64,000 bases of DNA from Haliotis cracherodii. Taxonomy: Eukaryota. Location: assembly GCF_022045235.1 (NCBI RefSeq), contig NW_027266271.1:24180001-24244000 (forward strand), given 5' to 3'. A model generated the notes under the pieces. That model searched no databases and was not told the DNA's origin. It saw nothing but the letters and a program-made list of their open reading frames with translations. A program made the translations under genes and the position numbers. Below are positions 2,789 through 43,624 of this stretch, in pieces (positions within the stretch are counted from its first letter, which is position 1; every line of letters starts with the position of its first letter).

Positions 2789-5700
2789 GTATTGTGACGG
2801 TTACTCCAGAAATAGAGGCTCTCACGACAAACCTGCTGTGTTCGAACCAAACTGCCGTGCTTGCAGCTCAACAACAATGCTTGAGTTTGCACAATCTTCC
2901 GCTCAGTATTCAGAACCCTCTGAGTCTGACCACTGGGGACCACAATGCTGTCATAGCGGCCAACACTCTTCTAATAAGCAACACTGTATTAGTGTGCCAG
3001 TGAGTATGCTGTGTCTGTCTGATTGTTTGTTTGTTCTTTAACGTCGTACTCAGTCATATTACAGCTATATGATGGTGGTCTGTAAATAATCGAGTCCGAA
3101 GCAGACATTCCAGTGATTGATGCCATGTGTTCGATCTGCCCAATTGGGATACGATGACATGCATCAACCAAGTTAGTGGGCCTGACCACCCGATCCCGTT
3201 AGTCGTCTGTCACGACAATTCTGGGGCACTGAAGATCAAGTGTAACCCGGATCTTCCCAGGGGCAGTATACTGTGCAGTGGCAGTAAGCTCTAAAGTAAC
3301 TCAGATGGTCATGTGGACCAGGTAACATGTTTAAGTGATTAGACAAATGGAATGTGTACATGAACCGTAAACCCTCGCTTGAAATAACATTTGTTTGTTT
3401 GTTTATATATTTGTAACGCCTCACTCGGCAATACTCAAGCTATATATTATGGTGGCCTGTAAATAATCGATTCTGGACAATCCAGTGATTGATATATATT
3501 CAATCAATCAATCTTTATTCGAGCACTTGAAAGGCCACAGAGCCAAAGGCCCATAGTACATATGGCAGACGTGTTAGGCACAATGTGAACTATTATATAT
3601 ATATGGCCAAGTTTTGTCGGAATTGTCGGAATTTAACAATAGATTGATCTTTGATCATTAAAGTAGAATACAGGAAAATATTTTTTCTGGCAGTGGAGTA
3701 CAATGGACATACAAGTACAAAACCCTTTACCTTGACTATTTCACATTTGAAGGTTTTGTATATCTTTCACTCTCGATGCAAAATCATGGGATAACATCGA
3801 AATATTACCAAGGAATGAGGAAAATTTACATAAAACAGATAGAGTTCAGTGTACATATGCATTTTCAAAATTCTTTTATATAAGAATTTGTTCGATAATG
3901 TCAAGGAAAATGACCATGATTGCAAATAAATGTCTATAACACTCTGTAGAAAAGAACTGATATATTCACTTTCAGATTGTACAATCAGAAATTTCCCAAA
4001 CCACTATTGAATAACAATATTTGCACATCGGTTACCCAGTTATTCTTTCCATTCGTATTCTATAACATCATCATGTTGTAACATTTCACAGAGTACCTCG
4101 ATGAATTCATTTTAAGGAGTTTCAGTCAGTACTTAATAACGTTTAGCTGTGAATATATAAATAGAGGAAATCTACCACATTCTCCATAAACCATTGCTCT
4201 AGATGTGTTGGTTTTTACACCAAGAAACCTTTCACATTTCACATTAAATTGTTTTAATTCCCATATTTCAGCACCATAAAGTAAAATTGGATTAAATTTA
4301 ATATAAAAATTATATATAAAGAATGACTATGATATTGCGAATAACGACCCACGCCTTCGGGTGCAATGACACTCTCTTAACCAAGTCACCGATTCTAACC
4401 ACTCGATCCATTTGGTCGCCTCTTACGGCCAGCATAGGTTGCTGGAAACGTACACCCTTCAAAAAAAGAAACGCACAGGTAGTATGTATTTCATTGAACC
4501 TGACTACACAAATGATCCGGTATATAAATTGGATATATGTTGGAAAATTTTGGTTGCCTGATATTCGACAAACGATACGTCAAAACGCAGCCATTGTCGA
4601 TTTGCAATGTATTAAACGGCATTGTTTTCACACTTGTTCAAAAGTGTCATGGAGGAAAATAGTAAAGCAAAACGGAGGTGCAAGTTATGGCATTCGGGTG
4701 TCAACAGGACAACGCTCCACTGCAAACATCAACGGCTAGCCCTGGCCGTCGACATATCCATATCTCAACCCAATCGAACACCTCTAGGATGAACTCGATC
4801 GACGTGTGCGTCAACGTCAGAACACGCAGAAGACACTCCCACAAATGGCCAACACCTTACTAGCAGACTGGTGCAGAATTGTGCAGGACATAATACGTAC
4901 AATTATCAAGTCAGTGCCGAGTAAATGCACAGCCGCGATTGCTGCCCGGGGCGGTCACACTGAGTTTAGCGTCACCTTGCGGCATTATGTGACATGACAA
5001 TGAACAGTTTTCAATTCCTTTGTACAACGACAACATGTGACTATCGAGCTCAAACATTTCATATTTGTATCTATGATATTAAATTAGATATATCGATTTC
5101 ATTAGGTACAATGAATTTACTAAAAATCTGTGCGTTTCTTTTTTCTATGGAGAACGTATTCTATTCCAAAATCGCAGGGCCCTGAAATATCAAAGATGTT
5201 GCACTTTTCATATTGTATTATTTTGTGTGAGTCAGGGCCAACGTGGACAAATAGATCTTAGTACAGCATTGTGGTACCATGTTAAAATATAGGAATGACA
5301 ATAATGAAAGAAACCGTTCCAGAATCAAAAATATCGAAAAGAAACTGTCCAATGCAGCTGAGATAACACCGGCCTAGAGCTAATTTTTATAAGTTAATGT
5401 CATGACATTTTTCTCGTCCTTTTTTCCCACAAGAAATACTGAGGCTTACTCCAAAGTTGTTCGCTGCCTCCAGTACATCATATACAGCTGCGATGATAAC
5501 AGGAGTATACCCATTGCGGCCTACAGTACATCGGATAACTCGCAGCAGCTGAATGCAACGTGTTCGTTTCTATCAAGTGAGATTTTAGTGTGGCGTGAAG
5601 ACGATCAAATGATTCTTAATCCCTTTTAACCTGACGAATTAAAGTAAGAATTAAGAGAATATTTGGACATTCGCCTGATCAAAGTGTTATCATGACAAAT

Positions 5701-8700
5701 TCATTGACACCTGGAGACATGAAACAGAGCGACACGCCCTTAAAGAGGCAATACATTAAGAATATCAATATCGGGTGTGACCACCATTTGCGTTGATACA
5801 GACGAGGAGGTGCATTGAATACACCAGATGAGTGAAAACAGCATGGGAGACTTTGTTCCAAATTTCAGTCAATAATTCTGACCAACTGAGCTAGCGTTAT
5901 CGGCTGGTTCTGGTCCTGTCGTAGGTGTCTCACTATCTCATCCAAAACACGTTTATGGTCGAGAGGTCTGGAGAAACATCCGGCCATGGAAGTACAACAA
6001 TTTATGTGCCAGGTTCTCCTTACCGCATGTAGTCCCATGCACGACCATCCAAGTTTTCCTGGAAACTTATCTGTGGAATAGTTTACTGTCACAGTCTTTT
6101 GAACCTCAGCTGTTCCAAGTTAGGCGTGCCGGACGGTGACAGGGAAGCAAAATTGGGCGTATCGATGGACGTCGGGGTCGGATGTTGAGCTCCCTCAACC
6201 GGTTGCGTACGGTTCTGCCATAAATTGATCTCAACCGAGATGTGGCAGTTTGGTATCAATTCCATAATGCACCAACAAAATATGGTTGTCTTGTTGACGT
6301 GACGTCACACGTAGATGAATGACACCTTGGCGAGTGTTGACCGCCTATAGATAACGCCACCAAAGAGATGATATTGTGTTGCGATGAACATTAAGATGTC
6401 TGGCAACTTCGTTTTGCGCCATTCCTGTATGGCCCAGCAGTTTAAGGCGCCGCGATTCGCTGTGCAGAGTTGCGCCGCGATATAACTGTAATACTGTTAA
6501 AAGCGGCGTCAAACCCAACTCACTCACTCACTCATACGTTGAGTTTCAGCAAGCCATGGTATTGCATAAAGGTTATCAATTTTAAAGAGAAGTATCTTGA
6601 TGAGGATCTGATAGTTAAACAAACTTTACATGATATTCACGTTAAAAATACACGTGTAGCAGTATCATGCAAACAAACACACAAACATCCAAATTGTGCG
6701 CCGTACATTAATATGCACTTGCAAACTGTGTATCACGACCTTCAAGTCGAGGAGATATCTTAATGAATATGTATTGAAAGATTTTGAATAAATTAATTCT
6801 TTTGAACTTTATATGAAGCACAGTTACTTTTTCTGTTAGTATAGTATACCACTGAGAGACACAAATAATAAATGCAAAAAAAATGGAATATGATTATTTA
6901 TGACTGATTATGTCTACGTTGTATCAGTAATCCCTGTCTCCCGTCTTAGATTTTTGCTTTCGTTGCAGGTAGTCCTGTCGCCTGTGTATACTCTATATTT
7001 ACTCAACTTAATGAGTGTTCACGACAAGCCGTGCAAGAATTTGGTGGAAGTGAAACAGATACGTGTTTGTAAGTTGACAGTTGACAGTTGACTGTCAGGT
7101 GTTGCATTAACTATACATTATTAAGCACATAATGCTTCGAACATTGCATGTAATGGACCATATGACCACACTCCTTAGGCGTGTATTCCCGTTCAGACTG
7201 ACCTGAACTGATCTAATCCCTAACACAGTCACTCCCATATAGTTGAAACACTCAAATCATTTACAGCTAACAAATAAACAAGTGTGCGTGTGCGTGCGTG
7301 TGTGTGTAAGTTTGTGCATGTGTGCGTGTGCGCGCGCGTGTGTGTGTGTCTGTGTGTGTGAACATCATCAATTGTTTTCGGGGATTCATTCATATTTTTA
7401 TAACCGCTATTTTGTTTTTTTAAGCCCAATTCAATCTGTTTTGACGGATAATCAAGACTGATTACTTTCTGATTGTAACGTTTGATATTTCGCTACGTTA
7501 CTAGCAATACTAGCAATAAAAAGGCCCGCAGTACCTTACCTTACGCCTTACTAAATTCGGAAAGGTGGTCATCTATGACTTGTCTTATTGCTTCATCGCA
7601 ACCCGGAGTTGTAGATCTTTGGTCATGCTTTCACTCCTTTGTTAGCTTGGTCCGGGCTCAGTATTACTTGCAGGCCCTCGCGACATAGCTGTGACACTGA
7701 CTGCGGAGTTAACTAAATTCACTTACTCAATCGCTGTATTTCACAAAAACGTTATCTTTATATTTTCAAGTATACTTCAAGTGTAAGTATAGAGTAGGCT
7801 CTGATAGGTTTCGATGCATATGTAATGTATCTATCAAAGGTAAACAATAAAAGGTTCACTCCCTACTCCCCTGTTGGTCTTCCAATACTGCAAGGGGCAT
7901 AAGTAGCCCAGTGGTTTAAGGAGCGGCTCAATGTGCCACGCTGCGTCTCTCATCCGTGACAGCCAGATCCGCGGATCAAGGGTTCGAATCCCAGAATCTC
8001 CTGATCAAGAGCTGTGTTCTGTATCCGATTGTCTCAAAACTATATCCGCGATCATGGGTTTTACCAAAGTGCTAAACGTCTAAGATCTGCATCACTTTGT
8101 GCTTTCCTCACACATTAATGTAATATGCCATAAAATACTGTCCAAAGCTGCGTTGAAAAGTAACTCACTCAATTCACTTATTCCTAGGATGCAGGCTAAG
8201 ACTGATGTTTGTTCATATCCACTGCTGCGGTTATGTGGCGATGCTGCAGTACGCATCTACGAAGATCAAACGAGGAATGATACCGGCTGCAAAAATGAAC
8301 CAGGTATGTTGTTCTTTGTTAATATATATACATTGTTAATCTCATGGTATAAGGTAAGACATAGGTAAGACATAATGAGTTACATCTGTTTCACTGAGAA
8401 TGTCATGAAAAGCGTTTGAATTTGCCCTCAAAATATTTATTTAATATGCTTATCAGTAAGCTACGGCTCAGAATAGTTACCTTAAAATGCGTGGACGTAA
8501 CATGTGTGCGCGTCATACGTAACTCCAGAGCAAGACATCATTCGTTGAAAGCATATAATCAAACGGGGCTGTGGAACCAGCATTTCTCTTTGCGAAAGGA
8601 AGGTGAGGTTACAATTGTCATATTGTTTCTACTGATTGCACATTGTATCATTAGTATTTTACTTATGTGTTCCTTACATAATGTACCTGTTGGTTCCGAA

Positions 8701-11700
8701 CTTAGGTCCTGTATTAAAATACGGAATATAAAGCAAATGTTGGAACCAAAACCAAATTCTTAATTCTTAACCTTGCAGCACTGACAAGGTTGCGGTAGAA
8801 CTGTCAGAACTGACAGATGGTAATCCTTGCGTGTGGGCTCTGTTTCCTTATCACTTATCGTGAAGTAAGAATTACCGGCAGCTTGATGTGTCGTAGTCTG
8901 AAACAACACCCCACAATTCACAAGATAGGCATATGTAATTAAGTACATACACACGAAAACAAAGATAAGTAAGGACTGTCGTTATCATCGAAATATCTCA
9001 TCGCTCCTGGAAGTTGTGCAAAGGTGTTGGACCACTTTGATTAGAGAGTTCAAGAAATGTTACACAGCCAGCGCGTACGATTTCAATATTTTGTGGTAAA
9101 GTCAAGATAATGTCCAGACATGCATGTTCTTTTCTTTGTGTGCGTCACAAATAATCTGCATCATTTATGAGTGTTTTCAAACAATTATGAGCTGTTTCAC
9201 AAATTAAATCAAAAGAAATCTGAAGTTTAGACACTTAGGCATCCCCTTCTCGGGATAGATGAAGCAAAATCGCGGCCTTTTGTCGGTATTTGTGAATGTT
9301 ACACTTGTAAGCATTTGAATAATTATTCCTTGCGATCTATGACCACAGATACAACAGTCGAACTCTCAAATGGACATACGCACCGCGTTGACTGTTCAAC
9401 GACTAAAGGGATACAGGACGGAGCTCTTGACTGCTTATTGTACCATGGTATTTACCTTGAAGTGCCTCAGTTGTCATCACCGGAAGAAACGACGGATTAC
9501 ATACTGAAACGTCTCACAGTGTCCCAATATAGAGACATGTGCAGGTAAAAGTCACATTGTCATGTTGAAAATACAAAATAATAATACTCAAAGAACACAG
9601 TGGGTTCGTTATGAACGACATTTTCTTAATCCGATTTTTATATATCTTTTATATAATAGGGTTTGAAAGCATTTAATGAAACTGGTATTGCATGCTTGCA
9701 CTACGGGGTGCCTTTAATGGTTTCTGGTTTCTTTCTTATGATAATTTTATAGTTTCTACCGACCGATTAGTGAAATGTGTGCGTGTGTGTGCTTGAGTGT
9801 GTGGGTGCGTGCGTGCGTGTGAGTGCGTGTGGGGGCATTCTGTTCACGTTTGCTCCTGTAACATTGTTTATTCGCCTTCTCAGCAACATTTCGGCCTTCC
9901 ATAACGCTGTCAGATGTACCCTTGCTGTCCTGACCCGGTGCAGTCCGTCCAAGCGACACCTGTTTGCTGACCCCCATTCTGCCACTCTCGGAATGACCTC
10001 CTTCTGCGAACACAAGGATTTTAATAGTAGGTGTAATACAAACGCTAAAACACAAATGTTCATTGTTTTAGCATGAAGATTTAGATATGCCTCGGTAGAT
10101 ATTCGAGACTGGTTATTCTCTGGCGTTGACCTTTTGAATTATGTTTTCTTTCAACTTTGGCTTTGGTTGCACACCAGCAATATATGACATTTCTGAGACA
10201 TGTTTTTCCTGAAAATGCAAAGCTTTTCTCCTTTCTCTTGTGTTGCTGATTGTCTTTTTCAGAATTAGTATTTTAAACACATGTATCATTGACATGAGAA
10301 AATGATAATACTGCACATTCTTTTGCAAATCGTGTCAGTGGCGGCTGCTACCGGTAAAGCAGGGCAAAGCAACCATATTGAAAAATCTATTCACGGCCAT
10401 TACTCGGTCCTTTTTGTACTAAATGTAATTAAATGTTGTAATTGTCTAGTCTGTGGCGACCTGCAATAGTTCATATGTTGACCTTGTTTTTACCATGCTC
10501 TTAAAATCTCTCAAAATGCACATCTGGTTCCGTAAACTCCGTCTCTTCTAAAATCGCCAGGCAGGTAGCTTATCTTTGACATACACTTTTTTCCATAGGA
10601 TTCTGTTTAAAACAATATTTATGCAGAGTTTAGAATTTAAGCAGAAAATGTATAAATATTAATTTTTAGTGGCTGTCCTTGTTGGCATCATAAATTACAT
10701 ATCCAGGTGAGCTACAGTGCAGTGGCACTTTTCATTTGGTAGCTCAATTATCAGTTGTTCAGATTTTAGTTTGTATATTTCTTTAAGAAAGACATCAATC
10801 AAGGAAAAAAAACTTTAAATTGATTGTACAATAATTACAATGATTTGGACCTCGAGTTAAGAGTTTATCGTATGTTGTTTTTCTAGAGTTTGCCTCCAGT
10901 TGTGTGATGAACGCCGACCAGAGCACCTGTGAGAAAAGGATGTTTAATTCCAGCACGCCCGAGCAAATATGCAGGTAGATAGATAAAATGTTGATTGAGG
11001 ATATGTCTGACCATTGCATTATTAAAACATGTGCTGCTTTGTAGCTGTTTGATTGGCATTCTAGAAGTTGGTGTGTAAGAAAGTAAACGAACAACTCTAT
11101 GTATAACATTTTTAAGTTGTACGTTTTCTTACTGCGTTGTAGTTATGTGAATATGGGTAATAATTTACTGTTAGTGCTTCGATAAAACAGACCCGTGGTT
11201 ATTCCATTGCAAGATTGGTCCTCTAGTGTCCTAAAGGATGGCCAGACTCTATGACTTGAATATGAGTGTGTAACAGTGCTCCGTGTCCCGTTCCTAATGC
11301 TTTCAAACCCGGGATTCGAACACACAACGACCGGTTTCTGGCAGCTATAGTGTGTCGTCGTAAAGCACCGAGCTGCTGTAATACCTGTTCTTGGATCTAT
11401 CCCCTGACAAGTGATATACCAAAAGTTGTCAAGAATCAGGCAGAACTCGGGGTATTTGTACATGTATATTGATTTACAACTGATTTCGGAGTAACATAAA
11501 TATGTATATTTCTGATGTACGTACAATCTCCTTTAACCTCACGACAGTGACAAGCCAGTGATTGACATCATGAGAATCGATTTACGCAGGATAGGATACG
11601 ATGGCATGCGACAACCAAGGCAGCGAGCCTAACAACCAGATCCCGATAGTCCTACGAAAAGCCCAAATTCTAACCATGAACTTCACGGGGACCCGAGATT

Positions 11701-11986
11701 GGAATAAGGTGTTGAAAGTTTATGAACCTAATTTACTTTTTTTGTACCCCCCAACAGTATCATCCAAACCTTCACCGACTGCATGAAAGCCTCTGTGGAA
11801 TCCTGTGGTCCAAGCACTGCTGAACTGTACACGCACCTGCTGTCATCCCAGGTCCCCGCCCCCTGTGCGCAGGGGGGAAGGACGACCACACCCATCCCCA
11901 AGAGCCGGGCTGGCAAACGTGTGGCTTCAATGTTAATGACAGTACTCGCATTTATATATTCGAGAGTTGGAGTATCTCAGGGGTAA
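2789..11986 (+). CDS. Gene A: 24-Cys, four-module extracellular glycoprotein with C-terminal hydrophobic (GPI-signal-like) tail; 5' signal exon not located
   Basis: Eight GT-AG exons splice into one open frame of ~408 aa: 2789-2999 (IVTVTPEIEALTTNLLCSNQTAVLAAQQQC...VLVC), 5434-5576 (NTEAYSKVVRCLQYIIYSC...NATCSFLS), 6969-7068 (SPVACVYSIFTQLNEC...TDTC), 8188-8303 (MQAKTDVCSYPLLRLCGDAA...TGCKNEP), 9349-9544 (TTVELSNGHTHRVDCSTT...LDC...RDMC), 9884-10026 (NISAFHNAVRCTLAVLTRC...SFCEHKDFN), 10887-10974 (FASSCVMNADQSTC...EQIC), 11758-11986 (IIQTFTDCMKASVESC...APCAQGGRTTTPIPKSRAGKRVASMLMTVLAFIYSRVGVSQG*). Phases 1,2,1,2,1,2,1,2. Three Cys per exon. Sequons NQT, NRS, NAT, NDT, NIS, NSS. Same architecture as B, B' and C. 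Confidence 0.85.
3021..3262 (-). mobile_element. SINE-like repeat, (caaa)n-tail family
   Basis: Reverse complement aligns with 58078-58341. Sits ~20 nt after the exon 2 donor of A. Confidence 0.75.
3500..4320 (-). mobile_element. Degenerate LINE 3' fragment
   Basis: Minus strand gives PILLYGAEIW (~4262-4291) and other decayed post-RT segments. Ends in aataaagattgattgattga. Confidence 0.55.
4451..5158 (+). mobile_element. Internally deleted Tc1/mariner DNA transposon inserted into a SINE
   Basis: Imperfect inverted ends (aaaaaaagaaacgcacag ... ctgtgcgtttcttttttc). Decayed DDE motifs QQDNAP and WPS-x3-LNPIEHL*DELDRRVRQR. The SINE sequence resumes on the other side at a TA. Confidence 0.75.
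5690..6845 (-). mobile_element. Degenerate Tc1-like transposon
   Basis: N-terminal HTH GMAQNEVARHLNVHRNTISSLW (~6360-6425), LDEIVRHLRQ...PITLAQL, and terminal GGHTRY* (~5766-5786). Interrupted by a SINE piece at ~6431-6535. Confidence 0.7.
7282..7359. repeat. Compound (GT)n/(GTGC)n microsatellite; similar tracts at ~9775-9831, 25373-25414, 41014-41066, 46824-46878, 60172-60200, 63158-63184
   Basis: Direct inspection. Confidence 0.9.
7894..8170 (+). mobile_element. Old tRNA-headed SINE carrying the duplication breakpoint
   Basis: A box gtagcccagtggtttaagg, B box ggttcgaatccc, body aaacgtctaagatctgcatcactt...ctttcctcacacatt, and aactcactc tail ending just before the exon 5 acceptor of A. Confidence 0.7.
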
Positions 11987-12672
11987 AACCCGAACAACCT
12001 GAATGTGGACTTTCTTTTGTACTATTTTCTTTTAGTTTCTTAAAATACGTTACAAACTCCACACATACAAATTTCACAACGGGTCAAGGGGCTTTCATGG
12101 CATTTTCGAGCTGTGACGTAATAATATATTTTGATCGAACTTACACATTGAGTTGCTTTTGCATGTGTTTGTGACAGGTGCCACCGGTTGGGCAGGATAT
12201 GCTCACCTTTTCGCGAACACCTGGTATCATTACTATTTAATTGTGATTCATCAACACATGCTCATGATATGATCGGAATTGTATAATCGACTCTGCTTTA
12301 AGCAGAAAGTTCTATTGGATTTGGAAAGGGTTCTGTCGCCCTTATTTACAAACCTCATATTAATATTTGTTTGTGTTATCAGCTAGCACAGAACCCGATC
12401 AGAGACTGAATTCTTGTTCTGTGGTTATCTTAAGTCAAACTACAGCCAATAATTATTTATAATATATAACTCTCGGGTATTTTTATTGATTTTTATCCTC
12501 AGAAGGTCATGTTTGAAAAATATTACACTTCTAAACATGGGTTAGCATTGCAAAATACCTGGACAAACCAGGAAAACACAGGAATAACAAACCTTAAATC
12601 AACTTTGATGTAAATATTTGAACATATTTAATCTCCCTTTAAGCTACGTGAAGCTGTAACTGACAATCTTCA

Positions 12673-12736
12673 TCAGCCAATTACGACTGATCCAGCGGTC
12701 AGACACATAGACGGCGATTGGCTACGCAGGAGGTCT
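12673..12736 (-). pseudogene. Displaced 3' half of the original B-type last exon
   Basis: Translates DLLRSQSPSMCLTAGSVVIG*, matching the B' C-terminus (28269-28333). Lies ~100 bp downstream of the current B stop codon. Confidence 0.8.
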
Positions 12737-12837
12737 TGCGCATGTAATTTATATATTTATATATGCATATATGTATGGTTGAATCATTGGTTAACTGCAG
12801 TACAATCGCGTATTTATACTGTCATGTAGGATTTTTG

Positions 12838-15800
12838 TCAGCCAATCAGCGCCGACGTTGATCCAATCTTTGTCTTCAGACACATAGACGGGGATTGGCT
12901 GAGCAGGACATCTTTGTACATGCTGACAGTCGTCTTGCTGCAGCCGCTCACTGCAGACACCAGACACTTCTGGGTGGCATTAGTGTCACTGAAAACAAGC
13001 AAAAACACTTCCAGAGTTACCATGTACAATTCTGAGTAGCTTGGTGATTAAGAAAACGTTAATACCAGGTAATAACCAGTCTGGATTACGGACATATTCC
13101 ATAAAGCGCAAAAGGCAAAAAGTGAAACTTATTTGAAATCATCATACTGAGTCAGAGATGACACAATGTGTTCGCGTAAAGGGAACACAAGGTGTTCCCG
13201 TAAAGGGAACACATGTCCTGTGTTACCGGTAGTACACGTTTTACAGAAGCTGGTCCATCTCCTTCGTTTGAAGATTGAATAAAGGTTCATACACCTACAC
13301 ATCAGGGTAACAACATTCAAGGCATAAGTAAAGCTTTTAAAAAGTGTATGCTAACGCTTTCGTTCGAAAATTCAATAAATCTTCATACGACTCATGCATA
13401 TAAGTTGTTCCATCAGGGTTGCAACATTAAAGACCTTAGTAAAGCTATTAAAATGTGTTTGATAGACTTGTGGAAGACATTTCCGAAACAATTCAGCTCA
13501 ACCATTGACTTTCCATTGCACGTGTTTGTGACGGGTGTCATTGGTGGAACAGATACGATCACATCGGGAACAACTGTCATCATCACTAGTTATTCATAAC
13601 CATATCACAATGGACATTACTTTTAAAAGAGAATTCGTATGGTTATCCATAGGGTCGCTTTTATTTGTTTTGCTACAATATATACTATGGGTGTCAGAAA
13701 CTTAATGAACATCTGGTGGTTCTAGTGTGTCACCTGGGTGATTGTGCTTCATCATGCACTCCAGGCGTGGATCTTTATTCATGCTATCAACCACTGGTCT
13801 GACTGACCACCACTATTTATAGGTCCCCGGTTAATGCATCTAGATGGAATATTACTGAGTTAGCTTGATTAAAGTTGCGTTCAGTCATACTGTGATATCC
13901 TTTTGGACTACCAGTGACACTTTAGGACAAGTCCATTGTTTGTGGGTTGTAAACAGGGTAGAGCCTGTTATATTGTTTGCAGCTTAACACGTGCATGTAA
14001 CTACTTTACCTATTATCCACGTGCATACACCATTGATCTAACATAGAAATATTTAATAAAGTAGTGAGCATTCTTCAGACCGTCACGGTGTCTTTGAACC
14101 GAAAGATCTTTGATGTAATTTACTTACGCGCACAGGTGTCCTGGGCTAGTTGAATCCAAAGCGTGGAGTCCATGGCCACTGCCGCATGCTGCTTTAGGTG
14201 CATTCTGTACACACTGAGAGTCGAAATCTAAGAACAGACAATTATAAGAAAGATTCACTATGTCATTCTTAAATAAAAAACATACAACTTTGAATTAAAT
14301 AAAAATGAATGCCTTTTCTAAAATATACATAGTTCTTCATTTTTAAATTTAAACGTCGCCGTTTTAAAAATTCCACCTTCAAGACGTCTAAATATCGAAG
14401 ACATGTATGACTTTATATCCCGGATTTAAATTAATATATACAAGTTTGAAATAAAATAAATATACAGTATCCATGCGCTGTATACTTTCAAAATGACTTT
14501 CAAATCTCACCGGGTTTTAAAAAAAATGAAAATGCCAACCTCTACACAAGTATAATAATGGAACTTGAATGTTGCGTCTCGAGTCTCAACAAAGACATAC
14601 ACGTATAAATAAAGGATGGACATTTTGCCGTATATCTCACCCCCAATGTGGCCGCAGAGTTTAGCCAAGCCGTTCTGCACTGTCTGGGAGTCGGCCACCG
14701 CGGACTTCATCACGTGGTCACTGCACTGCTCCTGTACCCACAGAGTACAATTCACTGCCAGCTGGTAGTTCTTCAGATTACTGTATGATATAGAACGTAA
14801 CTTATGGAGCTCGCTGTATGTTTATGTATATTCTGTGTATGTAACACGTACTATTTAGTCATTTATAATTCATGCTGGGATAGTTGCTTCTGAAATAAGT
14901 TCACGTTCCCTTTAATGTGCCCTTTTTGAAAATCATTTCATATCGGTCAACTGTGCCTGGTGTAAAAATGTTCAATAGTATCGTCTCATAAAAACGTAGC
15001 CTGCTTGTTTGGTCATACATTTTCTAAAATGTCTAAAATGCTTGCATCAGTTCTACATAAGAAAATTCGGAAGATAGTAAATGGAAGCAAAATGATTTTA
15101 AAAGTTCTCAAAATAAGTATTTCCGAAGCATGAATTAGATGTACATTCGAATAATACAATTCTTAAAGTTTTGTAATTACATACAATTGACAAATAATGT
15201 TACTGGTTGATAAAAGATTAAGATATTTATTTTTCTATATAGGTAAATTTAAAAGGAACCCTGAAAATGGAGAAATATATTTTGGAGACTATAAGGTCTA
15301 TGCCGCGCTATTTTCATCTTCCCGAGGCAAGAGGGTTAACTGGCTTTAAAAGTGGAAACTGGACTTTTATAGTCAGTTAACTCTCTTGCCTCGGGAGGAT
15401 GCGCTATTTTCTGTGCGCATATGAAATTCCGCTTCTTTACGGATGGATAACCATGCCCTAAATTCTTGGTACACTTTCAGGCAACAATTGAAGCAACATC
15501 AAGAAAATGTTTATGGATAATGTCGAAGACGGCGACAGATAACAGACGCCAGAGAGCAGATTGCACATAAGTAAACAGAACTTTACTTTTCTCACGTCTA
15601 CTGTCTAAATTTGTAAAACTGTTAATATTGATCAATCCCTTACCCGCGATGTCTGATTTTCCGTGATCCATTCATATAATTTCAACTGCTATCTGGGGCG
15701 GTCGGGTAGCTCAGTGGTTAAAGCGTTCGCTCGTCACGCCGAAGGCCCGGGTTCGATTCCAGACATGGGTACAATGTGTGAAGCCCATTTCTGGTGTCCC

Positions 15801-18800
15801 CCGCCGTGATATTGCTGGAATATTGCTAAAAGCGGCGTAAAACCATACTCACTCACTCACTCAACTGCTATCTTGCCTTTTTTGTCCAATGGATACTCGA
15901 GACTGGTTATTCTTTGGCTTTGATGTTTTATATTAATATTCAAACAGACACTTGTAACTACAGGAGTTCGAGGTGGTAGTAAGCGATATCTTAAAAATAC
16001 ATATACCTGCACATCGTCTTGCTTTCACTCATTGCCATAGCGTTCATAATGTAATGGCTTGTGCCTTCACTTGTTAGTTGCTTTGGGACATCTAGCAATA
16101 CACTGTTGTACATTAAGCATTGATAGTAGCTGCCTCGGATGTTTTCAGTGGTGGAACAGTCCACGCTGGTGATGTCTGGGCCTGACGGAAGTCAATGAAT
16201 TAATATCAAGTCTCAGGAATATGCCATGGTACATGGTACATGTATTTATAAATGATTCCCAAACGTACTCGATGAAACGACCAGAAAATGTGTATGCACA
16301 TTGCAAATACCAGTGATCTGACTTACTTAATTTGTTTATTTCAGAATATATTGCTTGTTTGTTTGTTTGTTTATTGTTGTTTAACGCCGCACTCAGAATA
16401 TTCCAGCTTTACGATGGCGGTCTGTAACAAATCGATTCTCGAACAGATAATCCACCGACTGACATCATGATCATCGATCTAAAAGCTCTTGCAACAATAA
16501 ATGAATAAGAATGTTTTACAGTCAAACAACACCAAAATGATATGACAGTTAGGTTTTGAGAAATGTTGAATATATAATGGTCCGTCGCCAGCATCCCTAT
16601 GAGTATGACAGGTACAGTTTAACGTTCGGGCTGTAGATCGTATATACTAGTAACTATATTTAATTATTTACACCTTTACTCAACTCACAACAGAGTTAAT
16701 ATAATGTTCATTAATAGCCTTTTCACACAACTACATTTCCTTAATCCATCTGCTGTTTTACTGTTCATATATGTGTGATGATGTCTGTCAGTCCTGTTGT
16801 GACGAACCTGTAGCAATTGACGAGCAGTCTGTGTTGTTTGGCACGTTTGCTTCATAGATATGGAGTGCGGCCTCGCCACAGGCTGGTATGTACTTTCGGG
16901 CACATAGCGACGACATCTGTGCTGACCTGACATAGATAATTCAAATGAAATCAACCAATTAAGATTTTGATTAGATTGTGAGGGGTTATAGCTCTGTTTC
17001 ATGTATAAGACACATCAAATTAATTTTCAACGGATTTGTTATTAATGTAATGTATTTCATGTAAAGACTAAATGAGGTTGATATCTTCTAGTTGCTAATG
17101 ATGGAATGTCAAAGATTCGATGTTTTATAGTTTTTGGAAAAAGTAAATATCGGAAGAACCTGTTCATGGATATCAATCAGCCTTTCTATGATACCATGTA
17201 CGACTATTGGGGAAAAAAGGAAAGCAAGAATCTAATAATCTTTTAATCAGGCCTGATGTGAATTACACAATTCCTGCCTGTGAACTTCCATAAAAAACTA
17301 AGAATGGTGGTCATGAGACAAATACACGCACTCACACACACGGTTTGTATCATTTTAAAGAAGGATACAAGTATTTGACGACAAGTTACTCACAAACAAT
17401 CTATCTTGTGCATCAACTCAGTAAAGTTGAGGTGAAGGTAATCGTTGGTGGTCATGTAACTGTTGACATCGGGACAGTCCCCCATTTTAGACGTCACTTC
17501 GACCATGCAGGTCATGTTGAGCTCTTGAGGAACAATGACGTACTTAATAGTTAAACAACTTGATAGCCGGTGATTATAAAAACAGTACTGTTTTATTAAT
17601 GAACTGGTGTAAGTTCTTACGGATGCTTATGCTAAAGTTAAAAATGATAGCAAGTTTCTTAACATCTAAGGTGGAAACCAAATTGACTTCAATAAAATGA
17701 ATTAGTGCACCGAGAAACCTCATTTCTCGAAGTACTATATATAGCTGGTTGTAGTTTCGAGTGATTTGATTTCACAGATTTCACAGAGCCAGAGCCAAAA
17801 GGACTTGTACATCCCCTTGAACAATTTATTCAGTTTATGAAGGCCGAGTTATCGAGGTTTATCAATAAACAATATATTTCAGCCAAGTATGTCGAACATT
17901 TTTCTTTCGAACACATCTTACGTGGTTCAAAAATTAAAAAACTAATCCTGAATTCAATCCAACTGTACATCTAATACATCCTGCACAAAACGTTTTGAAG
18001 ACTTGACATTTCGAACTAAAAACGCATCTGTGGCTTTCAATGTCCCTTTAATGGCTAGAAATATGTTGGAGAGATACAACAGTAACTTTCGACACGAGTT
18101 ACTCAGCTTACAACAGAATTTTGTATGGTAACCAGCAAGGAAAGAGGACGGCTTTGGAAAGCTTGAATGTTATATGTGGCCTTGAATGTTGTAGCCTTGA
18201 TCAAACAATTTTGCACAAGGGTCGCAGAACGTTCCTTGAAGGAAAGAGTATGCTCGATTGTACAACTAAAGTTGTGAAATGTAGACACCAAAGGCTGGAG
18301 CTGCTGGAATATTGCTCAACAAAAGGTGACTATTGAAAGGTTGAAGTCATCCCTCATATCATAAAAGGGAATTGACTCTTTAAACTTGAGTAACATTCTC
18401 AGTCAAACATATATTTCCCTAAAAATTCCAGAATATTACACATTTCAGGAACCACAAACAGTTTCATTTTCCAAGTTGTTATTGGACTTTAATTTTGTTG
18501 TCCTTACATATATATATATATACATAAGGAAAATAATATATATATTCTTTTCCTTATGTGTATCACATAAAAATGCCTTTCAGAGACATAGAGTTACCCC
18601 TTGGTTGTTTACAAACATGACAGTCTTGAGCATTCGAGAAGTTTCAGGATTGGACAGTTTCTAAAAGGGTGGTTGTACCTATATAAGAGCGACAAGAGTG
18701 CGATTCGATGTCTTTTACAACTTGTCTTGCATTTCATCTACCTATCAAGTACAGACGGGATACCTATCTGAAATTACCGAATTCCAAAACCATTTTGAAT

Positions 18801-21144
18801 TCTAAAATAGAGGCAGCATTGTTTAACGACATTCGACTGAAATTTTCTGGACATTCGTGAGTCCTCGGAAATATATTGTGAGGCTTGATACTTACTGCTA
18901 TTGCCATTTGTTTGACTATTGTACTGCCTGTTTTGATTGTAAACATAAAACTGTATTTTTGAATAAAATACATTAATCATGTTTGGTCATTTACTTATTT
19001 CACAATTTTAACTTGTACAAATCCATTTCTAGGATTAGCTTTGCGTTTCAAGTTTGAAATTCGTAACACTGATACATGTCACATTATCAGAGGTGATTTA
19101 AGACCAATTGAATTTGTTTGAGCAGATAATCAAGACTGTTTATTCTCTGGCGTTTACTATTGTCTATTACTGACATAACGGATAGGATCCGGTGACAATT
19201 GTGTCCAATTCCTTTGTCAGTGGTTAAAAATTATGCTATACTCACTGTCCTTGTTGGCGCAGGCATATTCTTGCCACTTCTTTATCTTGTCTGACGTCGT
19301 ATACGTATCGGTCTGTTTTAAACACTTCTTGTTTATGTTACCAACACAATCAGCGGCCTTCCCATAACCGTCAAGATTCCTGAACGTTTCGTCAAATGAC
19401 AATGTTTTTACATGGACAACGTGAACGAGAATCATTTCGTATGTTTTGCAACAATGTTATAAAAAGGTTGAATGTATCATATATTCTGTTTCATATAATC
19501 AAGAGATACGCAATTGCAGAAACATAGCCCCAACACAACCATACTGTTGTTCGAGCAGGGTTAATGTCAAATACTACTCTGTTTCTTTGTTTGTTGATTA
19601 GCACCACACTTAGCATTATAGCAACCGCTAAACAGAGCCCTCAGGTCATCCCATTAATTGTCAAGTACTTCCTACGGGCTATAGTCAATTCTCTTCTGTT
19701 AAAGTCACTTTCAAATGTTTATTATCCTTTAAAGCGAGACGAAGACGATCCTTTATGGTATCAGTCGTACAGCCCTTTACTGTCGTTCGGAATACCTCGT
19801 ATTAACCATTTCGAGTTTGCATGATCAGAAAACACTTTCCAACTGTCACTTTCCCGATCTGGTTAACTGATTGATGGGATGAAAGGTCGTTCTGACATGA
19901 ACCTATTGGGATGTCTGATTTTATTGAGATTTGCAATATTCCAGCTTTAGGGTGGCAGTCTTCAAATAATCGAGTCTAAACCATCAAGCCGATTTACAGC
20001 ATGAGCAATTGGGATTCGATGACATGCATCAAAAACGCCAGTCACCAGATTGCCCGATCAATATTCGACTTCATACATTGATAATAAGGCATCCTTGACT
20101 GCGGCGTAAAACATCAGTCACTGCACTAAAATCATAATGGTAGTATTTCAATTATCATTATCATTTGATCTTGTTTTTCTTTATTCCAATGCCACAAGCA
20201 TCATTAATAGTAGCATGAAGTATGAATGTTGATGTTATTAAAGTGTTATTAAAGGAATTGTTCATACTAACCTACACATGTCATCTAAATAACCTGGGGT
20301 TATCGAAGACAATACTGCAGCTCCGGACGAGTTGGTGATTTCGCTTAAGGATGGTATTTTGAAGGTGACGCCGTATTCGTCAAAACACTTCTGTTCAATT
20401 AACAACATAGATTGTAGATCGCTGCAGTTTACTTGCTGGGAGAAATCGATCACATCTGAGGTTCCATTCTTCCCTGGAAAATTATTCAATGAGTTCTTCT
20501 AATTTGTTCTCGCTTATTGCTAAATCAACATCCTCGCATTGAAAATTTAGCTTTCACAGGAAGAAACAGATATATTAGTGCTCAAGAGATTTGCAAATTT
20601 GTATCACGTTTTGCGATGGTACAGGGTGTGCTGGGTTACGCAAGAAATTGGTAGGGTTCGAGTTTCAGTCGCCATAACACCAAAGATGTTTTCAGTATAA
20701 CACGAATAAGATGAGTGGGTGAATACGTTTGGTTTTACGCTACTTTTAGCAATATTCCAGCAATATCATGGCGAGGGACACCAGAAATGGGCTTCACATA
20801 TTGTACCCATGTGATGAATCAGACCCGGATCTTCGGCTAATCCACCGCCCCAAATAAAACGAGAAATATATGTTACAATTACACTCATAAATCATAGTGT
20901 TCGTGTTTGCATGATCCATTATTTCAGCAGAATCAAAATCCTATAGGCTCTCCAAGCACCCCCAGGACCCAGTATCTAGCGAATAGTAACAACAGATTAA
21001 TGATACTTGATGACACCACGTCGTCCCGGTTTATGGAGTGAATAGCCCATTTAACCATTCTACTATTCAAAAGGCAGAGACGTAAATAAACTTACCGGAA
21101 ACCATCGAAAACAGCAGGAACACGAATAGGAACAAGAGCCTCAT
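12838..21144 (-). CDS. Gene B: secreted 24-Cys four-module glycoprotein (399 aa), chimeric last exon
   Basis: Nine exons totalling 1200 nt, open frame: 21144-21096 (MRLLFLFVFLLFSMVS, signal peptide), 20473-20272, 19379-19246, 17523-17394 (LNMTCMVEVTSKMGDC...KIDC), 16926-16808 (SAQMSSLCARKYIPACGEAA...TDCSSIAT), 16181-16007, 14780-14641, 14227-14128 (FDSQCVQNAPKAAC...GHLC), 12988-12838 (DTNATQKCLVSAVSGC...SMCLKTKIGSTSALIG*). All introns GT-AG. Three Cys in each of exons 2-9. ATG context accATG. Confidence 0.9.
15695..15860 (+). mobile_element. Young tRNA-derived SINE with 13-bp target-site duplication, in intron 6 of B
   Basis: A box gtagctcagtggttaaagc, B box ggttcgattcc, (cact)n tail. TSD tcaactgctatct at 15682-15694 and 15861-15873. 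Empty site at ~31210-31222. Other copies at ~20711-20850(-), 37146-37313(-), 53530-53645(-). Confidence 0.9.
18100..18490 (-). mobile_element. Penelope-like RT C-terminal fragment (paralogue at ~34680-35068)
   Basis: RDDFNLSIV...SNIPAAPAFGVYISQL motif. Confidence 0.65.
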
Positions 21145-22150: not shown

Positions 22151-22251
22151 ATCTGCTGAATCTGTCATTACTAATGACTATAAAATACCCCTAACTTTTT
22201 GTGGCTGAATGTGTATATCTCTCTCTACAGCCAAAACAGTGAAATACAAGA

Positions 22252-23536
22252 AACAGCTCAAGTTGACAACGGGTCAGGAATGTGAAACTTCAGACTTTGA
22301 AAAGCTTCTATCCGAGATAAAGAATGTATCTGCCAAAGTCGATTAACTCTCTTACTAGCAACGTTAACGTCCTGTCTGTGAGATGTGACAAATTCGAGGA
22401 AGAAAACGTCACCCTAAAATCAACACTGTCTTCAGTCACAGACAAACTGGACTATATAGAAAACAAAAGCCGTAGAAATAATCTGCTATTCCACGGTGTT
22501 GTGAAAGAGAAACAATCAAAGACATGGACAGATATGTGAAGATATAGTACGTAAAATCATTAAGGACAATCTGGAAATGGATGATTCAGATATGGCAATT
22601 GAACTTTGTCATAGATTGAATAACAGTAAAACTCCCAATATCAAATTTAGAGACTTAGGTACGAAAGAGTCTATCCTTAGAAATGCTAAACGACTCAAAG
22701 GTACTTCATACAGTATTTCGGAGTATTTCATAAAACGTTAGAAATAAGCATAAAATGTTAAAAACAATAATGGATGATTCAAAGGCAGTTAGATTTGATT
22801 AACTGATTTATGAAAAAGGAAAGGTTCACACATAAGACCTTGAAAATGAGATTAATAGAAAGGTATTCAGCGCAGGTGGCGACCGTCCCGCGTTTCGTTC
22901 ACGTGAAGGTCATGGTGGGGGCGGATCCGCACGTGGCGCTTACAGCTAGGATCTCTGCTGGGCCTTGGATTGTAACGGTAAATGAAGAATCTTTTCGTTT
23001 ATGTCATGGAGCGTTAACGGTTTGAATCGCAAGTTGAAGGACAATTCCTTCGTTGGGTTTTGCTCTTCATTTGAATTGTCTTGTTTAACAGAAATTTGGA
23101 GCAACTGTTCTGAAGAAGATATGAAACAAAGCTTCCCCAATCACAATATTATGATAAATTTTCGTGAATACAATACCAGAGGTGGTGTCGCTCTTTTCGT
23201 CAAATATGAACTTCTTAAAGACGTTAAACATGTTGATTTAACTTGTACCGACTGTATATTTATATTTCTTGATCACTTATTTTTTGGTTTACCACGTGAT
23301 ACTTTACTTTTGTTTTCTTACGTACATCCTGAAACTACGTCAACAAAGTCTGATATCCATGATGTTAGAGGTATTGATTATCTTGAGCAATGTTTACTTA
23401 AGAAACTTTGTAAATTTGAAGATCTTTCTATTATACATGCAGGAGATTTAAATGCAAGAACTGGTATTTTGCAAGATTTTATTATATCTGACGATGATGA
23501 GAGTGAAACAGATATCTTAACATTAAATGAAATGGA
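22252..23536 (+). mobile_element. Copy of the same LINE 5' region (ORF1 N-terminus deleted)
   Basis: Near identical to ~38555-39854. Contains ENKSRRNNLLFHGV and the APE ORF starting at 23001, truncated at the duplication junction. Confidence 0.85.
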
Positions 23537-23730
23537 TCATGGGTTCGAATCCAAGAATCTCCTGATCAAGAGCTGTGTTCTGTATCTGATTGTCTCAAAA
23601 CTATATCCGGTTTTACCAAAATGGTAAACGTCTAGGATCTGCATCACTTTGTGCTTTCCTCACAAATTTATGTGATATGCCATAAAACACTGTCCAATTC
23701 TGCATTGAAAGTTAACTCACTTAACCCTAG

Positions 23731-26700
23731 GATGCAGGCTAAGACTGATGCTTGATCATATCCACTGCTGCGGTTATGTGGCGATGCTGCAGTACGCATC
23801 TACGAAGATCAAACGAGGAATGATACCGGCTGCAAAAATGAACCAGGTATGTTGTTCTTTGTTAATATATATATATATATAATCTCATGGCATAAGGTAA
23901 GACATAATGAGTTACATCTGTTTAACTGAAAATGTCTCGAAAAGCGTTTGAATTTTCGCACAAAATATTTATTTATGATAATCAGTTAGCTACGGCTCAG
24001 AATAGTTACCTTAAAATGCGTGGACGTTACATGTGTGCGCGTCATACGTAACTCCAGAGCAAGACATCATTCGTTGAAAGCATATAATCAAACGGGGCTG
24101 TGGAACCAGCATTTCGCTTTGCGAAAGGAAGGTGAGGTTACAATTGTCATATTGTTTCTACTGATTGCACATTGTATCATTAGTATTTAACTTATGTGTT
24201 CCTTACATAATGTACCTGTTGGTTCCGAACTTAGGTCCAGTATTAAAATACGGAATATAAAGCAAATGTTGGATGTTCGGAAACCAAATTCTGAACCTTG
24301 TAGCACTGACGCGGTTGCGAGTAGAACTGTTAGAACTGACAGATAGTAATCCTTGCGTGTGTGCTCTGTTTCCTATTCACTTATCGTGAAGTAAGAATTA
24401 CCGGCAGGGTGATGTGTCGTAGTCTGAAACAACACCCCGCAATTCACAAGATAGGCATATGTAATTAAGTACATACACACGAAAACAAAGATAAATACGG
24501 ACTGTTTCTTCGTTATCATCGAAATACCTCATTGCTCCTGGAAGTTGTGCAAAGGTGTTGGACCACTTTGATAAGAGAGTTCAAGAAATGTTACACAGCC
24601 AGCGCGTACGATTTCAACATTTTGTAGTAAAGTCAAGATAATGTCCAGACATGCATGTTCTTTTCTTGGTGTGCGTCACAAATAATCTGCATCATTTATG
24701 AGTCTTTTCAAACAATTATGAGCCGTTTCACAAATTAAATCAAAAGAAATCTGAGGTTTACAGAGAAAATAATATGAAATGCATCAATCGCCTTATATAA
24801 AACATCATAGTGATATTTAGGGATAGGACACTTAGGCATCCCCTTCTCGGGATAGATGAAGCAAAATCGCGTCGTTTTGTCGGTATTTGTGAAGGTTAAA
24901 CTTGTAAGCATTTGAATAATTATTCCTTGCGATCTATGACCACAGATACAACAGTTGAACTCTCAAATGGACATACGCACCGTGTTGACTGTTCAACGAC
25001 TAAAGGGATACAGGACGGAGCTCTTGACTGCTTATTGTACCATGGTATTTACCTTGAAGTGCCTCAGTTGTCATCACCGGAAGAAACGACGGATTACATA
25101 CTGAAACGTCTCACAGTGTCCCAATATAGAGACATGTGCAGGTAAAAGTCACTTTGTCATGTTGAAAATACAAAATATAATAATACTCAAAGAACACAGT
25201 GGGTTCGTAATGAACGACATTTTCTTAATCCGATTTTTATATATCTTTTATATAATAGGGTTTGAAAACATTTAATGCAACTGGTATTGCATGCTTGCAC
25301 TACGAGGTGCTTTTCATGGTTTCTGGTTTCTTTCTTATGACAATTTTATAGTTTCTACCTACCGATTAGTGTAGTGTGTGTGTGTGCTTGAGTGCGTGCG
25401 TGTGAGTGCGTGTGGGGGCATTCTGTTCACGGTTTCTCATGTAACATTGTTTATTCGCCTTCTCAGCAACATTTCGGCCTTCCATAACGCTGTCAGCTGT
25501 ATCCTTGCTGTCCTGACACAGTGCAGTCCGTCCAAGCGACACCTGTTTGCTGACCCCCATTCTACCTCTCTCGGAATGACCTCATTTTGCCAACACAAGG
25601 ATTTTGATAGTAGGTGTAATACAAACGCTAAAACACAAATGTTCATTGTTTTGGCATGAAGATTTAGATATGCTTCGCTAGATATTCGAGACTGGTTATT
25701 CTCTGGCGTTGACCTTTTGAATTACATTTTCTTTCAACTTTGGCATTGGTTGCACACCAGCAATATATGACATTTCTGAGACATTTTTTGCTGACGATGC
25801 ACAACTTTTCTCCTTTCTCTTGTGTCACTGATTGTCTTTTTCAGAATTAGTATTTTGAACACATGTATCATTGACATGAAAAAATGATAATACGGCAAGT
25901 GTGAGACACATTCTTTTGCAAATCGTGTCAGTGGCGGCTGCTACCGGTAGAGCAGGGCAAAGCAACCATATTGAAAAATCTATTCACGGCCATTACTCGG
26001 TCATTTGTGTACAAAATGTAATGAAATGTTGTAATTGTTTAGTTTGTGGCGTCCTGCAATTGTTCATATGTTGACCTTTCTTTTACCATGCTCTTAAAAT
26101 CTCTCAAAATTCATATCTGGTTCCGTAAACTTCGTCTCTTCTAAAATCGCCAGGCAGGTATCTTATCTTTGACATACACCTTTTTCCTTAGGATTCTGTT
26201 TAAATCAGTATTTATGCAGAGTTTAGAATTTAAGCAGAAAATATTTAAAACTAATTTTTGTTAAGTGTCTGTCTTTGTTGGCATCATAAATTACATATCC
26301 AGGTGAGCTACAGTGCAGTGGCACTTTTCATATGGTAGCTCAATTTTCAGTTGTTCAGATTTTAGTTTGTATATTACTTTAAGAAAGACATTTCAATCAA
26401 GGTAATAAACCTTTAAAAATGATTGAACAATAATGACATAGATTTGGACCTCGAGTTAGTGTTTATCGTATGTTGTTTTTCTAGATTTTGCCTCCAGTTG
26501 TGTGATGAACGCCGACCAGAGCACCTGTGGGAAAAGGATGTTTAATTCCAGCACGCCCGAGCAAATATGCGGGTAGATAGATAAAATGTTGATTGAGGAT
26601 ATGTCTGACCATTGCATTATTAAAACATGTGCTGCTTTGTAGCTGTTTGATTGGTATTCTAGAAGTTGGTGTGTAAGAAAGTAAACGAACAACTCTAAGG

Positions 26701-39853: not shown

Positions 39854-40048
39854 ATCATGGGTTCGAATCCAAGAATCTCCTGATCAAGAGCTGTGTTCTG
39901 TATCTGATTGTCTCAAAACCATATCCGGTTTTACCAAAATGGTAAACGTCTAGGATCTGCATCACTTTGTGCTTTCCTCACAAATTTATGTGATATGCCA
40001 TAAAACACTGTCCAATTCTGCATTGAAAGTTAACTCACTTAACCCTAG

Positions 40049-43581: not shown

Positions 43582-43624
43582 CTGGGTGGCACTAGTGGCA
43601 CTGAAAACAAGCAAAAACACTTCC
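43582..43624 (-). pseudogene. Remnant of a third B-type gene (acceptor plus first codons of last exon)
   Basis: ctgggtggcactagtggcactgaaaacaagcaaaaacacttcc matches B' ~28389-28431. It is followed directly by LINE ORF1 sequence, so the rest of the gene has been deleted. Confidence 0.7.

What the first reader, a model, noticed from the sequence alone, without database searches (positions are those of the whole stretch)
11758..12988. Membrane-anchored and secreted paralogues arranged tail-to-tail
Seen: A ends with a T/P spacer (RTTTPIPK), small residues (S-R-A-G) and a hydrophobic stretch (VASMLMTVLAFIY). B, B' and C stop 10-13 aa after the last Cys. The A and B stop codons converge only ~850 bp apart (~675 bp for A'/B'), and I found no clear canonical AATAAA between them. 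Inference: a GPI-anchored receptor plus soluble ligand or decoy set built from one fold, with possibly overlapping 3' UTRs allowing antisense co-regulation.
Basis: partly seen in the sequence, partly recalled or inferred. Interest (0 to 1): 0.7.

Follow-up and report, generated by a model that had tools for sequence, protein, structure and literature searches.

The report
Abalone anchored and secreted paralogue cluster
This is an abalone cluster of related cysteine-rich genes in which one gene with a weak, predicted membrane-anchor tail faces tail-less, likely secreted relatives; such mixtures are common in this snail protein family, so the layout is likely an ordinary product of gene duplication, not a receptor-ligand switch.

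Summary
The anatomy is real; the special reading is mostly not supported. A (+ strand) and B (- strand) are paralogues (32% identical) of an uncharacterised gastropod family of disulfide-rich helical repeats, DUF1397/DUF19-like but below Pfam cut-offs. A reads as a 668-aa, six-domain gene starting 9.7 kb before the window; its tail fits the GPI layout only weakly (polar last eight residues). B, B' and C have signal peptides and no tail. Tailed and tail-less forms are both common among relatives (7 and 5 of 15), and a closer paralogue with a textbook GPI tail lies 2.5 Mb away. The second 'pair' is a copy within a 15.6-kb duplication whose A' is a headless fragment with a stop codon. A canonical AATAAA does lie on B's strand (12482), and an RNA contig of B ends in poly(A) at 12480, 494 nt short of A's stop. 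A's own 3' end is unmapped, and one contig from another organism bridges both last exons, so some overlap remains possible. Nothing shows that A binds B. Interest 0.2.

The parts
2789..11986 (+). Gene A, last 8 of 13 modelled exons (2789-2999, 5434-5576, 6969-7068, 8188-8303, 9349-9544, 9884-10026, 10887-10974, 11758-11986); five more exons, including a predicted signal-peptide exon, lie before the window (L001: 273-333, 4719-4929, 5217-5362, 6662-6881, 8321-8463)
   Evidence: Open 668-aa frame, intron phases 1,2,1,2..., 36 Cys in six domains; spliced contigs over 8188-10026 in run X8 and one GT..AG joint in X1; joins upstream of 8188 are modelled, only partly backed (P0012)
11867..11983 (+). 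A's 39-aa tail: Thr/Pro linker, candidate omega Ser (11903-11905), spacer with Lys-Arg, 13-aa hydrophobic stretch (11921-11959), polar last 8 residues; predicted weak GPI signal
   Evidence: same tail in H. rufescens model P0002
11987..12837 (.). 851-nt gap between the stop codons of A and B, holding both 3' UTRs
   Evidence: A-type contig of X8 reaches 12181; B contig of X1 reaches 12480
12149..12335 (.). Dispersed repeat fragment inside the gap; breaks RNA contigs
   Evidence: Copies at 45732-45869 (inverted) and 48781-48911; many short contigs here in all runs
12480..12497 (-). 3' end of B RNA: poly(A) begins at 12480, next to AATAAA (12487-12482) and GATAAA (12497-12492)
   Evidence: 20 untemplated T before 12480 on the X1 contig 12480-12988; hexamers; priming on the A-rich stretch is not excluded
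12673..12737 (-). Leftover of the older B'-type coding end (ends ...AGSVVIG, stop), now in B's 3' UTR
   Evidence: Translation; same end in B' and in 5 of 5 H. rufescens B-type proteins
12736..13039 (-). Tract nearly identical to C's last exon and flanks; likely copied from C by ectopic recombination, which lengthened the gap from about 686 to 851 nt
   Evidence: 96.7% identical to 47236-47539; last exon 98% B-C against 87% B-B'
12838..21144 (-). Gene B, 9 exons, 399 aa: signal peptide, four 6-Cys domains, 8 N-glycosylation sequons, no tail
   Evidence: Identical to RefSeq XP_071101539.1; 8 of 8 introns joined in X1 contigs
23534..27594 (+). A': 5'-truncated copy of A (last five exons only), TGA in place of a Cys codon in its first kept exon
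   Evidence: A's 5' exons tested are single-copy in G000
28269..37605 (-). Gene B', intact, 398 aa, no tail
   Evidence: Identical to XP_071101544.1
39852..43012 (+). A'': second truncated copy of A with a deletion, a lost Cys, a GC donor and a frameshift in the last exon
47338..58615 (-). Gene C, 9 exons, 412 aa, signal peptide, four domains, no tail; 58% identical to B
   Evidence: a C-type exon 8 joined to the last exon in X1 (loose end at 12988)

Best explanation
A and B are paralogous abalone genes for disulfide-rich, predicted helical repeat proteins, where A is likely held on the cell surface by a weak predicted GPI signal and B, B' and C are likely secreted because their lineage likely lost that tail, and they face each other likely through an old inverted duplication that later tandem duplication copied. 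Shown: gene anatomy, paralogy, splicing of B and of A's 3' half, B's poly(A) at 12480, the broken state of A' and A''. Inferred: GPI attachment of A (about 0.6), secretion of B/B'/C (about 0.9), tail loss in the B/C lineage, and the working role: surface-bound and released versions of one glycosylated binding scaffold that act side by side in a secretory epithelium or body fluid, on the same kind of outside ligand and not on each other. B's main RNA end likely does not reach A's coding sequence in this species; any overlap would come from A's unmapped 3' end or minor read-through and would be incidental.
For: Tail state varies through the family: of 15 relatives that are not A- or B-type, 7 have a GPI-like tail, 5 have none, 1 is weak, 2 are doubtful models. 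Paralogue D, 2.5 Mb away on the same contig, has B's four-domain plan and a textbook tail. A, B/C and D form one abalone clade (99/100), with tailed A and D and tail-less B/C inside it. The unit was copied at about 15.6-kb spacing; copies keep whole B but only A's 3' half, broken, so duplication multiplied secreted genes, not pairs; H. rufescens has four B-type loci. B RNA carries poly(A) at 12480, 494 nt from A's stop. The gap is not conserved: 851 nt here, 674 nt in the copy, about 231 nt in organism C. dN/dS among B, B' and C is 0.53-0.68, no overall sign of an arms race.
Against: A's tail is at the weak end: mean hydropathy of the last 20 residues 1.08 against 1.5-2.45 for six strong tails (D and five relatives), and the hydrophobic stretch stops short of the end; no GPI predictor was run. 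RefSeq models of A in two species start at 8189 without a signal peptide; the 13-exon model is mine. One X4 contig runs from B's last exon 140 nt into A's coding sequence, X2 and X7 have contigs that continue to 12342, and X1 has unspliced contigs of unknown strand across A's last exons: all fit some 3' overlap. The next canonical signal on A's strand is at 13278, inside B's last intron. The branching order inside the abalone clade is weak (80/80) and long branches meet in the tree. The ligand and tissue are unknown.
Confidence: 0.65

Rival explanations
1. One reading: A is a GPI-anchored receptor or co-receptor, B/B'/C are its soluble ligands or decoys, and overlapping 3' UTRs couple their expression by antisense pairing or transcriptional interference.
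For: A has a GPI-like layout; B-type genes have signal peptides and no tail; a contig of organism C bridges both last exons; no canonical signal on A's strand before 13278; A and B contigs occur in the same runs X1, X4, X8.
Against: B's RNA is polyadenylated at 12480 in the window's own species; the gap length and content differ between copies and species; the duplicated partners A' and A'' are broken; mixed tails are a family-wide trait, with D unlinked.
Confidence: 0.1
2. A is not GPI-anchored: its tail is a decaying anchor signal, or is cut off at the G-K-R motif, so all members of the cluster are secreted.
For: Polar last eight residues with an Arg; 13-residue stretch too short for a membrane span (best 19-residue hydropathy 1.57); G-K-R precedes the stretch (that this is a convertase/amidation motif is recalled, not tested); Cys256 of the H. 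rufescens model is Arg here.
Against: The tail is identical in the H. rufescens model P0002 apart from one linker residue; two snail relatives have equally polar ends (P0024, P0025); omega, spacer and tail fall at the spacing given in PMC2571997.
Confidence: 0.2
3. A is itself decaying or split, its RNA mostly unspliced, and the locus is in effect a set of secreted B-type genes with A remnants.
For: RefSeq splits A into partial models; X1 contigs over A are largely unspliced; a lost Cys in domain 2.
Against: 668 codons open over 13 exons with canonical splice sites and regular phases; 94.5-96% identity to H. rufescens models; spliced A contigs in X8 and X4 that continue upstream of 8188.
Confidence: 0.08

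Closest known systems
DUF1397 (PF07165) proteins of arthropods
   Same: Nearest named cluster by language-model features for A's last unit (0.91, 178 of 256 features); weak Pfam hits in three relatives (best E 0.0047, 16.8 bits); secreted, Cys-rich, about 200-aa unit; one was listed in a fly peritrophic matrix proteome (PMC8035744, table passage).
   Different: A, B and B' give no DUF1397 hit at E 10; the best relative is under the 25.7-bit cut-off; B has two such units and A two plus two extra long domains.
DUF19 (PF01579) / CPG4 (PF15481) proteins of nematodes
   Same: Feature-search neighbours of B (0.84-0.89, leads only); large family of Cys-rich secreted proteins, 51 genes in C. elegans, 14 raised on infection (PMC3534327, table passage).
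   Different: No Pfam hit for any of 23 family proteins scanned; no link to immunity tested here.
GPI-anchored co-receptors with soluble forms, RGM and GFR-alpha (recalled)
   Same: Disulfide-rich helical ectodomain plus GPI signal; RGM_N touches A's last domain at E 0.63-0.87.
   Different: That hit is far below the cut-off (10.8 against 24.2 bits); no signalling partner is known for A; their ligands are of another fold (recalled).
Convergent gene pairs with overlapping 3' UTRs
   Same: Tail-to-tail layout with a short gap; over 20% of yeast genes are so arranged (PMC3900390, search listing and start of abstract only).
   Different: Here B's mapped end falls 494 nt short of A's stop and overlap is not shown in this species.

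Membership tests
GPI-anchored protein (A) | N-terminal signal peptide | tested here: inconclusive
   Candidate exon L001:273-333 with a hydrophobic core (best 9-residue hydropathy 2.99) and a phase-1 donor like B's; no RNA laid there; RefSeq models lack it
GPI-anchored protein (A) | Unstructured linker, small residues at omega to omega+2, spacer omega+3 to +9 (PMC2571997, passage) | tested here: met
   Omega Ser 26 residues from the end, S-R-A, spacer GKRVASM; residues 220-256 of the model have pLDDT under 50
GPI-anchored protein (A) | Hydrophobic tail from omega+10 to the C-terminus | tested here: inconclusive
   Mean hydropathy 1.11 with one charge; hydrophobic core followed by a polar end; between the tail-less (0.58 or less) and strong tails (1.5-2.45) on the last-20 measure
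GPI-anchored protein (A) | Stop codon used, no further exon | tested here: met
   X8 contig runs unbroken 11755-12181 through the stop; three RefSeq models end at the same place
GPI-anchored protein (A) | Anchor attached, released by PI-PLC; PredGPI/NetGPI score | not testable with these tools
   No predictor or assay available
Secreted protein (B, B', C) | Signal peptide and no membrane or GPI segment | tested here: met
   N-terminal 9-residue hydropathy 3.3-3.5; 9-13 residues after the last Cys; last-20 hydropathy 0.18-0.58; by hydropathy, not by SignalP
DUF1397 (PF07165) | Pfam score at or above 25.7 bits | tested here: not met
   No hit for P0002, P0003, P0004, P0006, P0007, P0012; best relative 16.8 bits
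DUF19 (PF01579) / CPG4 (PF15481) | Pfam gathering score | tested here: not met
   0 of 23 proteins and 0 of 16 single exons hit
RGM or GFR-alpha fold | Structural match to solved domains | tested here: inconclusive
   Model pLDDT 74; best Z 5.3 to unrelated helical bundles; not listed is not excluded
Natural antisense pair | Mature transcripts overlap | tested here: inconclusive
   B end at 12480; A reaches at least 12181; one bridging contig in organism C; contigs carry no strand
Receptor-ligand or receptor-decoy pair | Physical binding and signalling | not testable with these tools
   Needs a binding assay

The most novel reading that the evidence does not exclude
A is a six-domain GPI-anchored surface receptor of an unsolved helical fold, B/B'/C are tail-less decoys that arose from it and were amplified, and read-through from the strongly spliced B genes across A (and across the broken A' and A'' copies) silences A in the cells that secrete the decoy, a built-in switch between surface and secreted forms.
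Probability: 0.07. Interest if true: 0.6.

Novelty: new member of a known kind. Interest (0 to 1): 0.2.

Why it matters
As it stands it mends an annotation (A is split and headless in RefSeq; A' and A'' are fragments) and adds an uncharacterised gastropod family, with no clear solved fold, in which anchored and secreted forms interchange by gain or loss of a short tail. If A-B binding or antisense coupling were shown, it would be a compact model for how decoys arise from receptors; the evidence here does not point that way.

Tried and rejected
Complex prediction of B (28-388) with A's last unit (50-219 of P0006): no answer, score 0.00 in two runs, alignments not used; no evidence either way. 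Structure of B from a shallow 7-row alignment: pLDDT 32, not used. Fold searches with the A model: no Foldseek match at E 0.001, best VIA Z 5.3, none at 8 or more; PDB sequence search with A2: 0 hits at E 10; Atlas structure rows all TM under 0.5. Run search: no RNA holder listed on record; the runs are 'RNA?' guesses, though spliced joints and poly(T) show RNA in them. X1 has no contig over 12423-12479 (bin mean 1233.1 equals 1896.2 x 106/163): a hole proves nothing. Contig depths (B about 1,600-3,400 against A about 4-12 in X1) were not used to rank expression: the runs were found through this stretch and depth is one figure per contig. 7 of 21 listed runs were laid (X1, X2, X3, X4, X7, X8, X21); the tables were cut (15 of 399 and 15 of 24 joints shown). 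The 455-nt skip in X4 was considered as an intron and rejected: ends TG..TA fit neither strand. A donor at 11982 (splice to a further exon) was considered and rejected on the X8 contig. Variants in X1's unspliced contigs could not be assigned to A or A' (7 of 11 match A'). Earlier findings of the scan: nothing. Literature: no paper names the locus ids tried (five id stems); DUF19 with GPI gave one unrelated paper; one search gave none; PMC6742230 passages have no DUF19 or DUF1397; PMC3527274 passages only label DUF19 as Cys-rich secreted. No supplements were read; abalone proteome tables there could name the tissue of B.
Full report
Setting. The window is G000:C8:24180001-24244000 in a 1.18-Gb genome. 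Proteins identical to my models of B, B' and A's 3' part are named Haliotis cracherodii in NCBI, so this is an abalone locus. A unit of about 15.6 kb is present three times, the third incomplete.

Gene anatomy. B (12838-21144, minus) has nine exons and 399 aa: signal peptide, four domains of six Cys, each coded by two exons with intron phases 1,2,1,2. All 8 of 8 introns are joined in contigs of run X1, one contig matching B letter for letter over three exons. B' (398 aa) and C (412 aa) have the same plan and are 91% and 58% identical to B. A (+) shares the plan (32% to B, E 1e-34). RefSeq gives only its last 256 aa, without a signal peptide, and H. rufescens has a separate partial model for the upstream exons (P0012). 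Joining five exons from L001 with eight in the window gives an open frame of 668 aa, six domains, 36 Cys and unbroken phase alternation. Contigs of X8 and X4 start exactly at the 8188 acceptor with 224 and 23 further letters in front, which fits splicing to upstream exons; those joins were not seen directly.

The tail of A. It has 39 residues after the last Cys. Against the four-part layout in PMC2571997 (passages read) it gives one candidate omega Ser 26 from the end, a spacer with Lys-Arg and a tail of mean hydropathy 1.11 that ends in eight mostly polar residues. The last-20 hydropathy, 1.08, lies between tail-less members (0.58 or less) and strong tails (1.5-2.45) and equals that of two snail relatives. 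It is too short for a membrane span. The stop is used: an X8 contig runs through it to 12181. I put GPI anchoring at about 0.6; no predictor was available.

The family. A phmmer search with B gave 19 hits; the named ones are all gastropods. Leaving out three A- or B-type models and one fragment, 7 of 15 have GPI-like tails, 5 have none, 1 is weak and 2 are doubtful models. Paralogue D, 2.5 Mb away on the same contig, has four domains like B and a textbook tail. In a tree of the last unit of 22 proteins, A, B/C and D form one clade (99/100); the order inside is weak (80/80) and the tool warns of long branches. One loss of the tail in the B/C line is the simplest reading. A profile from 12 relatives outside the A, B and D types finds two units in B and C and four matches in A. 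No Pfam family reaches its cut-off for this domain; the Atlas points to DUF1397 (0.91) and DUF19/CPG4 clusters (0.84-0.89) (one source of evidence). The model of A's last 256 aa is almost all helical, pLDDT 74.

The second pair. A' and A'' begin inside an intron of A, behind a broken LINE-like element, and hold only the last five exons; A's upstream exons are single-copy. A' has a TGA in its first exon; A'' has a deletion and a frameshift. So there is one A and three tail-less genes, and the 674-nt gap is a copy of the 851-nt gap. The difference comes from a tract 96.7% identical to C's last exon, placed ahead of B's older end, which survives at 12673-12737.

The 3' ends. AATAAA is present on B's strand at 12482-12487. 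An X1 contig covers 12480-12988 and carries 20 T before 12480: B's RNA ends there, or about 20 nt further if the T run came from priming on the A-rich stretch. Either way it is at least about 470 nt from A's stop. Absence of AATAAA on A's strand is unremarkable (59% of shuffles, 84 of 146 pieces). Against my reading: A's end is not mapped beyond 12181; the next canonical signal on its strand is at 13278; in organism C, where 455 nt of the gap are missing, one 480-nt contig runs from B's last exon to 11847, 140 nt inside A's coding sequence; X2 and X7 have contigs down to 12342; and X1 has unspliced contigs over 8476-12186, one with a plus-strand splice. Contigs have no strand and a contig across two genes shows no single transcript, so overlap or read-through is possible but not shown, and its extent would differ between species.

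How it likely works. A and D likely sit on the cell surface; B, B' and C are likely released, glycosylated (8-9 sequons) versions of the same scaffold, amplified by unequal crossing-over and homogenised in part by exchange with C. I infer parallel action on an outside ligand in a secretory epithelium or fluid, by analogy with DUF19 and DUF1397 proteins (PMC3534327 and PMC8035744, table passages); that step is weak. dN/dS of 0.53-0.68 among B, B' and C (one 111-codon domain of B-B' gives 1.15 on 11 changes) fits relaxed purifying selection.

Verdict. Real paralogue cluster, correctly spotted difference in tails, but an ordinary one for this family; receptor-ligand pairing and antisense control are unshown (about 0.1). 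New member of a known kind; interest 0.2.

Noticed in passing
L001:8321-8463 (G000:C8:24178321-24178463): A's domain 2 has five Cys: the last is Arg here but Cys in the H. rufescens model P0012, leaving one Cys unpaired.
   Followed up: partly
L009/L010 joined, 5100-12472, minus (G000:C8 about 26.684-26.691 Mb): Paralogue D, four domains with a textbook GPI signal; its loop in domain 4 holds R-K-R-R, like K-R-R in C; first exon not located.
   Followed up: partly
G000:C8:10.770-10.802 Mb: Two tandem family members in which an immunoglobulin domain is inserted between the Cys-rich domains (P0030, P0018, P0019). This fusion may be more interesting than the finding itself.
   Followed up: partly
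window 50087-51043: 54-nt tandem array (17.8 copies) in an intron of C whose unit contains the end of exon 6 and its splice donor, so the intron opens with many spare donor-like sites.
   Followed up: no
window 14641-14780 and 12736-13039: B's exons 7 and 9 are closer to C (95%, 98%) than to B' (91%, 87%), while its other exons are 95-100% like B': patchy exchange between paralogues.
   Followed up: partly
window 22246-23777, 38015-39854, 43616-45230: Three broken copies of a LINE-like element (coiled-coil ORF and endonuclease-like ORF, Exo_endo_phos E 0.001) at the joints of the duplicated units.
   Followed up: partly
window 52412-53037: G-rich 6/18-nt tandem repeat in an intron of C that causes the local GC skew.
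   Followed up: no
window 30279-30479: 101-nt tandem duplication that repeats the acceptor and start of B' exon 7.
   Followed up: no
C-termini of B, B', C, P0018, P0023: Several tail-less members end in hydrophobic-Ile-Gly (LIG, VIG, IIG); meaning unknown.
   Followed up: no
window offset about -21400 and -26800 (L003): Exon-like stretches with EGF-like Cys spacing upstream of A, likely a neighbouring gene (the label is recalled).
   Followed up: no
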